This document shows positions 5,476 to 29,937 of a stretch of DNA of 64,000 bases, piece after piece. Source of the DNA: a virus; IMG/VR virus record IMGVR_UViG_3300022602_000038, positions 32,001 through 96,000 of that record. The stretch is one strand, 5' to 3'. The stretch's first letter is position 1; each line of letters begins with the position of its first letter. Made by a program: the position numbers and the translations under genes. The notes under the pieces were generated by a model, which did no database searches, was not told the DNA's origin, and saw only the letters and a list, made by a program, of their open reading frames with translations.

Positions 5476-5504
5476 TTGCCTGTTATTAAAAAATAGCCTA
5501 AAAT
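5476..5504 (+). promoter_or_regulatory. sigma70-like promoter driving candidate ncRNA
   Basis: TTGCCT-17-TAAAAT. Confidence 0.6.
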
Positions 5505-5507
5505 GAA

Positions 5508-5593
5508 GTACTGGGGTGAAAGCGCCGTAATCTGCAGTACCCCAATGGCTAGGCGCTTCTTGGAGGAGGTTCCTTATACGCCAATAATGAGGA
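5508..5593 (+). ncRNA. candidate pseudoknotted small RNA
   Basis: GC-rich island; TGGGGT(5512-17)/ACCCCA(5539-44) crossed with AAGCGCC(5520-26)/GGCGCTT(5552-58); 3' hairpin TCCTTAT/ATGAGGA; begins near the predicted TSS. Confidence 0.5.
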
Positions 5594-5658
5594 TTTAATT
5601 AAAAAGGTCAACTAAAAAAGGGATTATTTAATAAAAAAAAGAGTTGTAATATTACAAA

Positions 5659-5734
5659 AAATCTAGATTATTAATTTTGTATTAGTTATAAAACACTTAT
5701 AATTAAACATTAACAAAATAAACCAAAATAATAA
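5659..5734 (+). repeat. 76-bp perfect direct repeat copy 1 (promoter -10 plus 5' leader cassette)
   Basis: identical to 6294-6369; each ends 1 nt before an ATG and follows an AAAAAGAGTTG -35 region. Confidence 0.92.
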
Positions 5735-5735
5735 T

Positions 5736-5972
5736 ATGAGTAATAATAAAAGAGAAGTTAAATTAATAAATTGTAACTTATTAGATGTTAAAAATAACAA
5801 ACTAATTAAAATGGAGGGGTATGTTAAAATTGTAAATTATGATAATAAAGAGTATTTTGAGGTAAATTTAAGAGATGGGGATTTTAATAATGAGAAGTAT
5901 ATTTTAATAGGAAGTAATGAGAAGTTTAAGATTTTTGGTAAAGATGATGATGGAGGATATTTTGTAATTTAA
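5736..5972 (+). CDS. hypothetical early protein, mostly C-free codons
   Basis: 78-aa ORF directly after repeat copy 1. Confidence 0.7.
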   Translation: MSNNKREVKLINCNLLDVKNNKLIKMEGYVKIVNYDNKEYFEVNLRDGDFNNEKYILIGSNEKFKIFGKDDDGGYFVI

Positions 5973-6268
5973 ATAAATTAAGTAATTTGAATTTTAGTGT
6001 TGATTTAATAATAAAATAATATAGATTAATAATATGAAAAATAATTATAAAATAATTAAATTAAGTGTTGAAGAATTTATAGAAAAATATTATAATAAGT
6101 ATTTAGAAGAAAAATATGAAGATAATTGGATGGATGTAGTTATAGAAGAATTATTAAAAGATAATATTAAAATAGAATTTATAGATTAATAGAAATTAAG
6201 TAGTTTGAATTTTAGTGTTGATTTAAATAATAAAATAAAAAAATAATTAAAAAAAGTTTGTAATAATG
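5803..6268 (+). other. 466-bp tract with no cytosine on the + strand
   Basis: last C at 5802, next C at 6269; many G retained. Confidence 0.92.
6034..6189 (+). CDS. small acidic protein (51 aa) encoded without any C, absent from ORF track
   Basis: MKNNYKIIKLSVEEFIEKYYNKYLEEKYEDNWMDVVIEELLKDNIKIEFID*; GTTGATTT -35-like motif upstream. Confidence 0.6.
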   Translation: MKNNYKIIKLSVEEFIEKYYNKYLEEKYEDNWMDVVIEELLKDNIKIEFID

Positions 6269-6293
6269 CAAAAAAGAGTTGCATTAATAAGAG

Positions 6294-6369
6294 AAATCTA
6301 GATTATTAATTTTGTATTAGTTATAAAACACTTATAATTAAACATTAACAAAATAAACCAAAATAATAA
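6294..6369 (+). repeat. 76-bp perfect direct repeat copy 2
   Basis: identical to 5659-5734. Confidence 0.92.
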
Positions 6370-6370
6370 C

Positions 6371-6631
6371 ATGTCAGTCGAAATACAAAATAAAGTTAGT
6401 CTACCTATTAAAATCGAGAAAGGCATTAAAATGCCTTTCTCTTCTAAAGTAGCCACTCCTACTAAAAAATATAATAACTATAAAAAAATATTTAATAAAA
6501 TGCAAACAGGCGATTCTTTTATAGTAGAGCAAACAAAATTATCTGGCATTTCACAAGCATCTAAAAAATTAAACTTTAACTACATTAGTAGATCTATTAA
6601 CGATCAAGTAGTAAGAGTTTGGAAGGTATAA
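6371..6631 (+). CDS. small putative DNA-binding phage protein
   Basis: IKIEKGI.MP...KY...M..GDSF...VRVW pattern typical of a widespread small phage family. Confidence 0.65.
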   Translation: MSVEIQNKVSLPIKIEKGIKMPFSSKVATPTKKYNNYKKIFNKMQTGDSFIVEQTKLSGISQASKKLNFNYISRSINDQVVRVWKV

Positions 6632-6658: not shown

Positions 6659-6691
6659 GCTTGCCCTTTTAATTAAGGGCAAGCATTTTTT
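6659..6691 (+). terminator. intrinsic terminator
   Basis: GCTTGCCCTT/AAGGGCAAGC stem plus T run. Confidence 0.8.
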
Positions 6692-6865: not shown

Positions 6866-7012
6866 ATGAACAACAAAAATATATTAAATAAAATCAGTAA
6901 AGTAGACGAACTCTTACAAGAATTAAAGGAGTTATATGATGCAGGTAAAATGACAGTAGAGGAAGAAGCTAGTTATGAAAACTTTCTCTATAATTTAAAC
7001 GACACAATTTAA
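6866..7012 (+). CDS. small helical protein (48 aa)
   Basis: MNNKNILNKISKVDELLQELKELYDAGKM...; TTGCAA -35 at 6816. Confidence 0.55.
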   Translation: MNNKNILNKISKVDELLQELKELYDAGKMTVEEEASYENFLYNLNDTI

Positions 7013-7053
7013 AGCTATTAAAATAGTGTTGATTTAATAATATTATATAATAG

Positions 7054-7090
7054 AGGAGATATATATTAGGTTATATATCTCCTATTTTTT
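7054..7090 (+). terminator. intrinsic terminator
   Basis: AGGAGATATATA/TATATATCTCCT stem plus T run. Confidence 0.75.
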
Positions 7091-28865: not shown

Positions 28866-29558
28866 ATGTTACTACAAAATATTAGTTTAAATAATGTTGT
28901 GTTATATGAAACAACTAATATAACAGATACTATATTTGGGTCGTTAACTGCAACTAGTTCTATTTCAGCGTATAATGCAGCGTCAGTTAATAGTTGGGTT
29001 CAAGTTACAGGTGGAGAATATGCTAAAGTGCAAACTTTAATAGGCACTGTTACATATGGTATGTCTAATACTCAGTTTCTTGGTGCTCAAACTGGTAATT
29101 CATTTAATGCTACATTCTCTGTAGCTATGTCTTCTAATCCTAGTACTGCATTACCAACTGGAACTTATTTAATAGGTTTCGCTACTAGAAGTGGTGTAAC
29201 AAGTACAGCAGTAGTAGCATTCCCGTTAGTAGGACCATCTTATTTATCTGGTACATATACTAGCGTTGGTAGTGCAAGCTACACTACTCCTGGAACGATT
29301 TCTAATACTTATTTTGTAAGAAAAGCACCAACATCTTCTTTATCTGCTCCAAGTTATATTGCTTATGGCAATTACCCTACAAGTGCAAGTTATGCTTATT
29401 TAGCAACTGGTGCAACAACTTGGCCAAACATGGGTGGTTACGCTACTACAAGCTTTAATACAGATCATACTGCTGCATCTGCAATTGCACCTTTTACAAC
29501 CTACAATTCAAACTTACCGTTCTATCAAATGCTCGGTACAACTACAAAGACTTGGTGA
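28866..29558 (+). CDS. Ser/Thr-rich structural protein
   Basis: ORF within fibre cluster, beta-rich composition. Confidence 0.65.
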   Translation: MLLQNISLNNVVLYETTNITDTIFGSLTATSSISAYNAASVNSWVQVTGGEYAKVQTLIGTVTYGMSNTQFLGAQTGNSFNATFSVAMSSNPSTALPTGTYLIGFATRSGVTSTAVVAFPLVGPSYLSGTYTSVGSASYTTPGTISNTYFVRKAPTSSLSAPSYIAYGNYPTSASYAYLATGATTWPNMGGYATTSFNTDHTAASAIAPFTTYNSNLPFYQMLGTTTKTW

Positions 29559-29589
29559 TAAAATCAATTTTTACTATAAATAATACGTA

Positions 29590-29937
29590 ATGGCCACTCC
29601 TTTTGCATATACATATAATTCAGTAGGTTTCTCTGGTTATTCCGGTTATAGTGGTTATTCTGGTATTTCCGGTTATATTGGTATATCCGGTTATTCTGGA
29701 ACAAGTGGATATAGCGGCATATCAGGGTATTCAGGTATAAGTGGTTATTCCGGTTTAGGTATATCCGGTTATTCCGGTTATAGTGGTATTTCTGGAGCTG
29801 CTGCAGCATCTGGTTATAGCGGATATTCTGGTAGTGCAGGTTCACCTGGAACACCTGGTTCACCTGGAACATCTGGTTATTCTGGTTTTAGTGGTGATTC
29901 ATCTATAGCACTCGTGTATTCAATAGCATTAGGATAA
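29590..29937 (+). CDS. short (Gly-X-Ser)n fibre with C-terminal SIALG motif
   Basis: almost entirely triplets; TATAAATA upstream. Confidence 0.75.
   Translation: MATPFAYTYNSVGFSGYSGYSGYSGISGYIGISGYSGTSGYSGISGYSGISGYSGLGISGYSGYSGISGAAAASGYSGYSGSAGSPGTPGSPGTSGYSGFSGDSSIALVYSIALG

What the first reader, a model, noticed from the sequence alone, without database searches (positions are those of the whole stretch)
5803..6268. 466 consecutive bases without a single cytosine on the + strand, yet still coding
Seen: no C from 5803 to 6268 while G is plentiful. The tract spans most of one ORF, all of a second and the spacers, so those segments lack Ala, Pro, Thr, Gln and His. It lies downstream of a promoter and between the two 76-bp repeats. 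AT richness alone does not explain a one-base, one-strand loss. Known: T4 origins are promoter-driven persistent R-loops, and ssDNA cytosine deaminates rapidly. Inference A: the displaced non-template strand of an R-loop origin, or an exposed genome end, has been deaminated to exhaustion. Inference B: selection for transcripts that need no CTP (evading CTP depletion, ddhCTP or C-specific RNases) or for a G-free template strand.
Basis: partly seen in the sequence, partly recalled or inferred. Interest (0 to 1): 0.85.

Follow-up and report, generated by a model that had tools for sequence, protein, structure and literature searches.

The report
Phage early genes written without cytosine
The 466-base cytosine-free stretch is real: it is a two-gene piece of a swappable set of small phage genes that lake phages keep free of the letter C on the coding strand over tracts of up to 2.6 kb; selection maintains this, I found no published description, and the reason is still open.

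Summary
Observation confirmed. Window 5803-6268 has no C; the next longest C-free run in the 140.7-kb record is 67 nt.

It is not an origin and not a deamination scar. It is two small-gene cassettes (78 and 51 codons, each with a conserved promoter-like spacer) from a pool shared by related freshwater T4-like phages.

- In relatives the cassettes form arrays with 2,520 nt (+ strand genes) and 1,111 nt (- strand genes) lacking C on the sense strand. C returns 11-14 nt after the last stop codon.
- I found 20 unrelated protein families, with 673 NNT codons against 0 NNC.
- pN/pS is about 0.2-0.5. A/G synonymous sites are polymorphic (45/297); T/C sites are not (2/304).
- The same gene families also exist in ordinary, C-containing form.
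- A lake contig lacks the whole block, through recombination at the 76-bp repeat.

The phage carries the DpdA3/DpdN/QueF set. In Flavobacterium phage immuto that set replaces every G with formyl-preQ1, so the islands' template strand would carry no modified base.

Selection against sense-strand C is well supported. Its cause is unresolved: C as a liability in the message (about 0.3), a template free of modified G (about 0.3), or CTP-free synthesis (about 0.1).

I found no published description. This scan has noted the same phenomenon on other DNA.

The parts
5610..5738 (+). Copy 1 of a 129-nt promoter/leader repeat. It contains 9 C, has an identical 76-bp core at 5659-5734, and carries TTG...TAATTTTG. 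It drives ORF1 in this phage.
   Evidence: a lake contig recombined across this core
5736..5972 (+). ORF1, 78 codons. An orphan all-beta-looking protein lacking A, P, T, Q and H. It has three synonymous C at 5777, 5798 and 5802 and none afterwards.
5803..6268 (+). The cytosine-free tract (466 nt; A219, T169, G78).
5967..6032 (+). Cassette spacer unit, copy 1 (TAAGTA..TTTAGTGTTGATTT..A/T..ATG). It is promoter-like, C-free, has no stable stem-loop and no Shine-Dalgarno sequence.
6034..6189 (+). ORF2, 51 codons, 0 C. Its family also exists with ordinary C (L076 847-1005; G000 29475-29663).
6185..6250 (+). Cassette spacer unit, copy 2. It runs into repeat copy 2. In lake metagenomes its word depth is about 200 times that of the flanks.
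6245..6373 (+). Copy 2 of the 129-nt promoter/leader repeat (10 C). It drives the ordinary 86-codon gene 6371-6631.
6659..6684 (.). The first intrinsic terminator downstream of the block (bidirectional hairpin GCTTGCCC/GGGCAAGC). The same stem sequence bounds the arrays in relatives.
6866..7012 (+). 48-codon gene with ordinary C (16 of 147). It is a homologue (57% aa) of a family that is strictly C-free in five related contigs.
7016..7078 (+). The second-longest C-free run of the window. It holds a third partial copy of the cassette unit (7024-7054) and the 5' arm of terminator 7054-7083.

Best explanation
SHOWN. The tract is two cassettes (promoter-like spacer plus small gene) from a mobile pool of at least 20 small-gene families. 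Related lake phages carry this pool as head-to-tail arrays. Purifying selection keeps the sense strand of these transcription units free of C, from the A/T-only array promoter region to about 11-14 nt past the last stop codon. In this phage the block sits between two copies of a promoter/leader repeat and is present or absent among close relatives.

INFERRED (my commitment, only narrowly ahead of the rivals). Single-stranded C in the message is a per-nucleotide liability in the infected cell. The likely agents are endoribonucleases whose sites need a C (toxin-antitoxin and abortive-infection interferases of the MazF, ChpB or MqsR kind, or HEPN nucleases), with Rho loading on YC dinucleotides as a secondary contributor. 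Deleting the letter makes these accessory early-type messages (probably take-over or counter-defence genes) blind to all such activities in any host that the cassettes move into. C is allowed again only where it is not transcribed (some -35 hexamers) or is base-paired or lies past the coding region (terminator stems).
For: - Strand logic. In L005 the + strand has 0 C over 2,520 nt (nine + genes). After a 150-nt terminator region it has 0 G over 1,111 nt (five - genes). Other contigs show 2,604, 2,934 (with 1 C), 2,447 and 2,407 nt.
- Nucleotide level, not tRNA level. With one representative of each of the 20 families, there are 673 NNT codons and 0 NNC, log10 P = -83.7.
- Real genes. pN/pS is 0.17-0.48 in 7 of 8 families, and third codon positions vary most.
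- Ongoing exclusion. 45 of 297 two-fold A/G columns are polymorphic against 2 of 304 T/C columns (Fisher p = 1e-12). Four-fold sites vary among A, G and T but never show C.
- A discrete class. In G000 the two ORFs have 0-1.3% C; every other ORF has at least 10.3%.
- The same families exist in C-free and ordinary forms, with chemically conservative non-C replacements.
- Mobility. The cassettes' word depth in lake runs is 10-200 times that of the flanks, and one contig lacks the block through recombination at the repeat.
- C inside arrays is confined to -35 hexamers (TTGCCT, TTGACT), terminator stems, and a few sites in leaky lineages.
- Precedent (own knowledge). ACA-less mRNAs survive MazF. 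Excess C over G drives Rho termination (PMC13323073).
Against: - No C-directed nuclease, toxin or host was identified, and the host genome is unknown.
- No expression data exist: timing and transcript ends are inferred from sequence only.
- Rho alone predicts low C, not zero C, because ordinary genes here already have G > C.
- The base preceding the few tolerated C (mostly A) is what this genome's general codon bias predicts, so there is no independent sign of YC-specific or motif-specific avoidance.
- In this window, transcripts of the block must run on into C-containing sequence before the first terminator at 6659.
- ORF1 is led by a C-containing leader.
- In what I tested, the trait occurs only in the clade that carries the formyl-preQ1 gene set. 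That fits the template-strand rival equally well.
Confidence: 0.32

Rival explanations
1. Template strand free of the phage's own modified base. Virion DNA of this clade has every G replaced by 7-(formylamino)methyl-7-deazaguanine. A sense strand without C gives a template strand without that bulky base. Host RNA polymerase can then read these genes at full speed from the incoming DNA, or can still read them while a host enzyme attacks modified G, before anything else is expressed.
For: - G000 encodes the operon polB, a DpdA3 homologue (50.7% identity to immuto 'DNA guanine transglycosylase', 42% to CP220), a 76-aa ORF, a formyltransferase (PF00551), a P-loop kinase and QueF, in the same order as in immuto. 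It also encodes QueD.
- G001, which carries an island of at least 776 nt, has QueC, QueD and an 88%-identical DpdA.
- In immuto the dG peak is gone and fdPreQ1 replaces it; DpdA3 phages are completely modified (PMC10516641).
- Bulky 7-substituted deazaG nearly abolishes transcription by E. coli and B. subtilis RNAP in vitro, while plain 7-deazaG is tolerated (PMC4838386). This fits the absence of islands in phiST (plain dDG).
- Among the genomes I scanned, long C-free tracts occur only in this clade.
Against: - All other early genes, including replication and modification genes, have ordinary template G and must be read from the same DNA.
- The block is dispensable.
- Cultured immuto, with proven fdPreQ1, has only one nearly C-free gene out of about 240.
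- CP220 (amido-deazaG, fully replaced) and MA9V-3 have none.
- The in vitro block was at the promoter, not in elongation. Yet array promoters keep G in the -35 hexamer, and some have template-strand G there (TTGACT, TTGCCT).
- The association rests on one clade, so it is not phylogenetically independent.
- Notes of this scan report C-free early genes in other virus lineages (not checked by me).
Confidence: 0.28
2. Synthesis without CTP. The messages can be completed when CTP is scarce (it is the least abundant NTP, for example in starved lake hosts) or when C-analogue chain terminators such as viperin-made ddhCTP are present. Each C would be a pause or a stop.
For: - The effect is per-site with no threshold, which fits zero rather than low C.
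- Each cassette has its own promoter, so each gene can be made as a C-free primary transcript.
- The first C comes just after the last stop codon.
Against: - A T4-like phage uses host RNAP, which must itself cope with the same pools to make host RNA.
- No CTP-depleting defence is known to me.
- RNAP stalled 11-14 nt past the stop codon would still cover that codon.
- Lineages with 5-7 C per gene persist across samples.
- Nothing in the sequences points to viperin.
Confidence: 0.1
3. DNA-level cytosine loss on the exposed non-template strand. Either the C have simply mutated away through transcription-coupled deamination or R-loops, or selection removes targets of a host single-strand DNA cytosine deaminase.
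For: The bias follows the non-template strand in both orientations and stops at transcription-unit ends. Viruses attacked by APOBEC show comparable strand-specific motif depletion (own knowledge).
Against: - Replacements are not of the C-to-T type (Thr to Ser, Ala to Gly, Gln to Glu; E, K, N and D gain, while V, I, L and F do not).
- Adjacent early genes keep 10-15% C.
- A T-to-C allele at 5891 makes up 83% of the depth in one lake run, and six C are shared by contigs from three samples, so C is not erased quickly.
- C survives in terminator stems.
- The block is dispensable, so it is not an origin.
Confidence: 0.08
4. Keeping G and C on separate strands to abolish structure or sites. This would give an unstructured message for Shine-Dalgarno-less translation in a Bacteroidota host, or DNA free of every palindromic G/C-containing restriction site.
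For: - The tract's RNA folds at -46.5 kcal/mol against -102.1 for an ordinary neighbour of the same length.
- Only 2 of 104 long ORFs have an SD-like motif.
- A C-free strand cannot hold any G/C-containing palindrome.
Against: - Both aims are met long before C reaches zero.
- Structure matters mainly near start codons.
- Always C, never G, is the letter removed from the sense strand in 20 families and both orientations.
- 0.5-3.6 kb without sites cannot protect a genome of more than 140 kb.
Confidence: 0.07

Closest known systems
PeSL (promoter-early stem-loop) mobile regulatory cassettes of T4-type phages (Arbiol et al. 2010, PMC2839356; Comeau et al. 2014, PMC4122927)
   Same: A conserved intergenic unit of about 62 nt, with a sigma70-like promoter, precedes each small orphan gene in a hyperplastic region. 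Gene order and content differ between close relatives. Indels arise by recombination at repeated units.
   Different: There is no stem-loop or terminator part. PeSL cassettes are not reported to lack a nucleotide. Here the unit and its genes are C-free.
Rho-avoiding purine bias of sense strands (Dierksheide et al. 2026, PMC13323073)
   Same: G over C, and purine richness (64%), on the sense strand. Selection acts on nucleotide content, not on the protein.
   Different: That is a quantitative, genome-wide bias. Here one letter is excluded absolutely in a discrete gene class, while other genes of the same phage are ordinary. T is not reduced (36%).
Toxin-site-free messages: engineered ACA-less mRNAs that survive MazF (single-protein-production system; own knowledge)
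   Same: The message is made immune to a sequence-specific endoribonuclease by synonymous and conservative recoding.
   Different: A whole letter is removed, not a 3-nt site. This case is natural, and no cognate nuclease is known.
Synthetic G-less / C-less cassettes for in vitro transcription (own knowledge; see also the hits)
   Same: A transcription unit that can be completed without one NTP, and that stops at the first occurrence of the missing letter.
   Different: Those are laboratory constructs that do not code for protein. These are natural protein-coding genes under purifying selection.
[quoted passage not shown] 2023, PMC10516641)
   Same: The same gene set, in the same order, is present in this phage.
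   Different: The paper describes the chemistry and protection from restriction. It says nothing on gene composition or transcription (0 occurrences of 'transcription').
T4 R-loop origins oriF/oriG (own knowledge)
   Same: A promoter upstream, with G over C on the non-template strand.
   Different: The tract is coding, mobile and dispensable. In relatives it is present in both orientations and extends to 3.6 kb.

Membership tests
PeSL-type mobile early cassettes | A conserved intergenic motif carrying an early sigma70-type promoter in front of each small ORF | tested here: met
   The unit is repeated at 5967-6032 and 6185-6250, and six or more times per array in L005, L033 and L029, with TTGATT-17-TATATT. 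Promoter activity was not measured.
PeSL-type mobile early cassettes | A stem-loop (terminator-like) component in the motif | tested here: not met
   The units fold at only -4.4 to -6.6 kcal/mol, with z-scores of +1.07 to -0.59.
PeSL-type mobile early cassettes | Mediates insertion, deletion or shuffling of small genes between close relatives | tested here: met
   A contig in run X3 joins 5658 to 6294. Array content differs among L003, L007, L008, L009, L076 and L077.
R-loop replication origin (T4 oriF/oriG type) | A fixed, conserved, non-dispensable locus | tested here: not met
   The block is absent from a near-identical lake variant. In relatives the island has variable gene content.
R-loop replication origin (T4 oriF/oriG type) | A persistent RNA-DNA hybrid downstream of a promoter | not testable with these tools
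   This needs S9.6 DRIP or non-denaturing bisulfite mapping.
DpdA3/DpdN formyl-preQ1 DNA modification system | A DpdA3-family DNA guanine transglycosylase | tested here: met
   A 268-aa ORF next to polB is 50.7% identical over 100% of its length to immuto DpdA (E = 8e-78) and 42% identical to the CP220 protein. It does not reach Pfam TGT.
DpdA3/DpdN formyl-preQ1 DNA modification system | preQ1 synthesis genes (FolE, QueD, QueE, QueC, QueF) and the DpdN formyltransferase | tested here: inconclusive
   QueF (98.7 and 62.9 bits), a formyltransferase (27.5 bits) and QueD were found in G000. QueC was not found in G000, whose record is only 65% complete, but is present in relative G001. QueE and FolE were not searched.
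DpdA3/DpdN formyl-preQ1 DNA modification system | fdPreQ1 actually replaces dG in virion DNA | not testable with these tools
   This needs LC-MS of phage DNA. It has been shown only for immuto (PMC10516641).
Rho-avoidance composition | No excess of C over G; a purine-rich sense strand | tested here: met
   C = 0, G = 17%, purines 64%.
Rho-avoidance composition | Expression depends on Rho when C is reintroduced | not testable with these tools
   This needs reporter assays with and without Rho inhibition in the host.
Nuclease-site-free messages (MazF-resistant type) | Absence of the toxin's recognition site in the message | tested here: met
   This is trivially true for every site that contains C, over 5803-6268.
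Nuclease-site-free messages (MazF-resistant type) | A cognate C-requiring endoribonuclease active in the infected host | not tested
   The host is unknown. It is inferred to be Bacteroidota only from the lack of SD motifs and the nearest DpdA3.

The most novel reading that the evidence does not exclude
A natural three-letter gene dialect. A mobile pool of at least 20 early-type gene families, using a 15-amino-acid alphabet, is written without C because the phage replaces all its G with a bulky base. On this reading only genes whose template strand lacks G can be read at once from the incoming genome, or can still be read while the host attacks the modified base. That would be the first case of a DNA hypermodification dictating the sequence of genes.
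Probability: 0.28. Interest if true: 0.9.

Novelty: categorically new. Interest (0 to 1): 0.78.

Why it matters
Complete exclusion of one nucleotide from natural, selected, protein-coding transcription units is not a described phenomenon in the literature I could search. It implies a strong base-specific hazard at the start of phage infection, acting on the RNA, on its synthesis or on the template. That hazard is either an unknown host activity or a cost of the phage's own DNA hypermodification.

It also yields three practical things:
- a simple sequence signature for finding first-expressed or counter-defence genes in uncultured phages;
- natural proteins built from 15 amino acids;
- a cultured entry point for experiments: Flavobacterium phage immuto gp143 on Flavobacterium sp. 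LMO8.

Tried and rejected
- Chance or AT-richness: rejected.
- Assembly or consensus artefact: rejected. The cassettes occur in independent assemblies and in four lake runs.
- tRNA or amino-acid level cause: rejected, because NNC codons, which the same tRNAs read, are absent.
- Non-coding tract: rejected (pN/pS).
- Known families for the proteins: none. Pfam and PHROGs gave nothing for ORF1, ORF2 and 10 island families. An HMM search of 1.84 billion representatives found only ORF1's own cluster. The AlphaFold model was poor (pLDDT 58.6), so I ran no fold search.
- DNA similarity to cultured phages: none.
- IMG/VR relatives of the 201-aa neighbour: none.
- Rfam and tRNA scans: nothing in the window.
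- 'Cassette transferred between unrelated phages': I considered this after and dropped it. G001 shares core genes at 60-88% aa identity and the locus is syntenic.
- 'G replacement always brings islands': rejected. phiST, CP220 and MA9V-3 have no run beyond expectation.
- crAss001: longest C-free run 76 nt and no QueC. I could not fetch the prototype crAssphage record.
- YC-specific avoidance among the few tolerated C: inconclusive. The counts match the genome's own codon bias.
- Expression: no RNA holder was listed among the sequencing runs.
- Literature: searches for cytosine-free or C-less phage genes found no description.
- Complex prediction was not used, since there is no binding claim.

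Full report
**1. The observation**

Window 5803-6268 contains 219 A, 169 T, 78 G and no C. The window is bases 32001-96000 of a 140,720-bp viral record. In the whole record the next longest C-free run is 67 nt, and no other base shows anything similar. With the C content of the flanks (12.9%), the probability of one such run is about 1e-28.

The tract covers codons 23-78 of ORF1 (5736-5972, 78 aa), all of ORF2 (6034-6189, 51 aa) and two copies of a 66-nt spacer. It lies between two copies of a 129-nt promoter/leader repeat that share an identical 76-bp core. ORF1 has three C in its first 67 nt.

**2. What the genome is**

It is a distant T4-like myovirus. Terminase, sheath, tape measure and collagen-like fibres were found, and the nearest sheath proteins are 34-39% identical (Pelagibacter and cyanophage myoviruses).

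Shine-Dalgarno-like motifs precede only 2 of 104 long ORFs. This points to a Bacteroidota-type host; that is an inference.

Downstream of polB lies an operon: a 268-aa ORF, a 76-aa ORF, a formyltransferase, a P-loop kinase and QueF. [quoted passage not shown] QueD is present too. In immuto all dG is replaced by formyl-preQ1, and DpdA3 phages are completely modified (PMC10516641). So this phage probably has no ordinary G in its virion DNA (inferred, not shown).

**3. The tract is a fragment of something much larger**

ORF1 has 74 metagenomic homologues at 77% identity or more. Their contigs, and contigs found through the spacer motif, carry arrays of small genes, each preceded by the same unit of about 62 nt.

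Contig L005 (4,257 nt) shows the full architecture:
- an A/T-only promoter region;
- nine + strand genes with no C over 2,520 nt;
- a 150-nt terminator region that has both C and G;
- five - strand genes with no G on the + strand over 1,111 nt;
- another A/T-only region.

The missing letter therefore follows the sense strand. The first C appears 14 nt (+ array) or 11 nt (- array) after the last stop codon.

Other contigs have runs of 2,604, 2,407 and 2,217 nt, and one of 2,934 nt with a single C. Only eight distinct C occur in roughly 30 kb of (partly redundant) island sequence.

G001, a 76-kb IMG/VR contig that ends in such an island, is a true relative of this phage. Its polB is 82% and its DpdA 88% identical at the amino-acid level, the island locus is syntenic, and it encodes QueC and QueD.

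**4. Selection, not chance and not decay**

The island ORFs fall into 20 unrelated families of 47-104 aa. None matches Pfam or PHROGs, and ORF1 has no distant relatives among 1.84 billion representative proteins.

- Codon use. Taking one gene per family, there are 673 NNT codons and no NNC. The phage's ordinary genes use 9-35% NNC for the same codon pairs (log10 P = -83.7). Because NNT and NNC are read by the same tRNAs, the constraint is on the nucleotide.
- Coding. pN/pS is 0.17-0.48 in seven of eight families.
- Ongoing exclusion. Among variants, 45 of 297 two-fold A/G sites are polymorphic but only 2 of 304 T/C sites are (p = 1e-12). Four-fold sites vary among A, G and T only.
- A discrete class. 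In this genome the per-gene C content is bimodal: 0 and 1.3% for the two cassette genes, and 10.3% or more for all 171 others.

**5. Against a mutational origin**

The same families exist in both dialects.
- The 48-codon gene at window 6866-7012 has 16 C, while its homologues in five contigs have none. There, Thr (ACA) corresponds to Ser (AGT), Ala (GCT) to Gly (GGT), and AAC to AAT.
- An ORF2 homologue with 11 C (L076) differs from the C-free form by changes of Thr to Ile, Ser or Asn and of Gln to Glu.

Overall, the missing A, P, T, Q and H are made up by E, K, N and D. They are not made up by the V, I, L, F and Y that C-to-T change would produce.

C alleles also persist. T>C at 5891 (AAT to AAC) makes up 83% of the depth in one lake run. 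A lineage of ORF1 with six C is found in three samples.

These facts, the ordinary neighbours, and the fact that the block is dispensable argue against 'deaminated to exhaustion' and against an origin.

**6. The block in this phage**

In four lake metagenomes the cassette sequences have word depths of hundreds to thousands, against 7-25 for the flanks. They are therefore shared by far more abundant phages.

One contig joins 5658 to 6294 and is otherwise identical. That variant lacks one repeat copy and both cassette genes, as expected from recombination across the 76-bp core.

The three C of ORF1 are T in the abundant variants. There is no terminator before 6659. So in this phage the block's transcripts run on into ordinary sequence, and ORF1 has a C-containing leader. 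The window thus holds a passenger fragment of a trait whose home is the arrays of its relatives.

**7. Why no C?**

Sequence alone does not decide this. I favour mechanisms in which every single C counts. Threshold effects such as Rho loading, overall structure or palindromic sites are satisfied long before C reaches zero, and ordinary genes here already have G > C.

*(a) C in the message is the hazard* (C-requiring endoribonucleases, with Rho as a contributor). This reading is general, and it fits three things: C is tolerated only in untranscribed -35 hexamers and in paired terminator stems; the gene content is accessory and mobile; and other virus lineages are noted by this scan to have similar genes (unchecked). 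No nuclease or host is known, however, and the context of the tolerated C gives no independent support.

*(b) The template strand is kept free of formyl-preQ1.*
- For: the gene set is present; bulky 7-substituted deazaG blocks bacterial RNAP in vitro while plain deazaG does not (PMC4838386); and among the genomes I scanned, only this clade has islands.
- Against: all other genes of the phage have template G; immuto has only one nearly C-free gene (gp143); CP220 and MA9V-3 have none; the in vitro effect was at promoters; and the association is a single clade.

*(c) CTP-free or terminator-proof synthesis, (d) protection of the non-template strand, and (e) structure or site avoidance* are less likely, for the reasons given under the rival explanations.

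My odds are: (a) 0.32, (b) 0.28, (c) 0.10, (d) 0.08, (e) 0.07, something else 0.15.

**8. Comparison with what is known, and novelty**

The cassette architecture resembles the PeSL cassettes of T4-type phages (PMC2839356, PMC4122927) but lacks their stem-loop. The composition resembles an extreme form of Rho-avoiding purine bias (PMC13323073), but it is absolute and confined to one gene class. The logic resembles ACA-less MazF-proof messages and laboratory C-less cassettes.

Full-text searches found no description of natural cytosine-free genes. Earlier notes of this scan report the same phenomenon on other DNA, several of them in relatives of immuto. I used them as leads. On this DNA I checked the gene set, the immuto gene, the PeSL comparison and the Rho paper myself.

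**9. Verdict**

Reading A is not supported. Reading B is supported in general form only. The tract is a small piece of a striking and apparently undescribed trait that is maintained by selection, and its mechanism can be tested with a cultured relative.

Noticed in passing
window 5476-5598: A promoter-like TTGCCT-17-TAAAAT is followed by an 85-nt G+C-rich island with apparent nested or pseudoknot-like complementarity, which overlaps a 31-codon ORF. There is no Rfam match, and its folding energy is no better than that of shuffles (z = -0.36).
   Followed up: partly
window 5610-5738 and 6245-6373: The same promoter/leader (identical 76-bp core, with a TAATTTTG motif like the Bacteroidota -7 element) is fused to two unrelated genes. 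A lake variant has a single copy, with the block between the copies missing.
   Followed up: yes
G000:C1:118807-124470 (beyond the window; L036 5808-11471): An operon of polB, DpdA3-like, a 76-aa ORF, a formyltransferase, a P-loop kinase and QueF, in the same order as the fdPreQ1 cluster of Flavobacterium phage immuto. QueD lies at 140125-140514, at the end of the record. The record is rated 65% complete.
   Followed up: yes
whole G000; for example upstream of the ORFs starting at window 15656, 19659, 24828 and 47676: TAAGTA lies 11-16 nt upstream of the ATG of about 15 structural genes (terminase, fibres, tape measure). This is a candidate late-promoter motif. TAAGTA also opens each C-free cassette spacer, but there it is about 55 nt from the next ATG.
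   Followed up: partly
whole G000: Only 2 of 104 ORFs of 150 aa or more have a Shine-Dalgarno-like motif. Among synonymous pairs, C-ending codons after T are rare (TTC 18%, ATC 14%, GTC 9%) compared with those after A (AAC 35%, TAC 33%).
   Followed up: partly
L005 2906-2960; L008 1632-1670: Three GTGTTCAAA-like repeats sit beside the array terminators, in a G+C-rich segment of about 140 nt that splits the GCTTGCCC/GGCAAGC terminator stem in L005. This could be a small inserted element or a protein-binding site.
   Followed up: no
L077 1494-1796; L078 1055-1357: An HNH_2 endonuclease gene with ordinary C content sits directly at the edge of a C-free array. It may be a homing endonuclease taking part in cassette exchange.
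   Followed up: no
NC_055915.1 68018-69576 (L053): In cultured phage immuto 2-6A, gp143 (68330-68686) is almost C-free (runs of 99, 90 and 158 nt), and its small neighbours are C-poor (4-8%). This offers a laboratory handle on the trait.
   Followed up: partly
L076 2078-2600; L079 764-1695: Genes at array edges are intermediate (1-7 C), and the first spacers there use TTGCCT -35 hexamers, while the inner genes have 0 C. This could reflect recombinant junctions or a position effect.
   Followed up: partly
G000:C1:29475-29663 (before the window): A 62-codon paralogue of ORF2 (38% aa identity) with ordinary C (11%), within the region of late-type genes.
   Followed up: no
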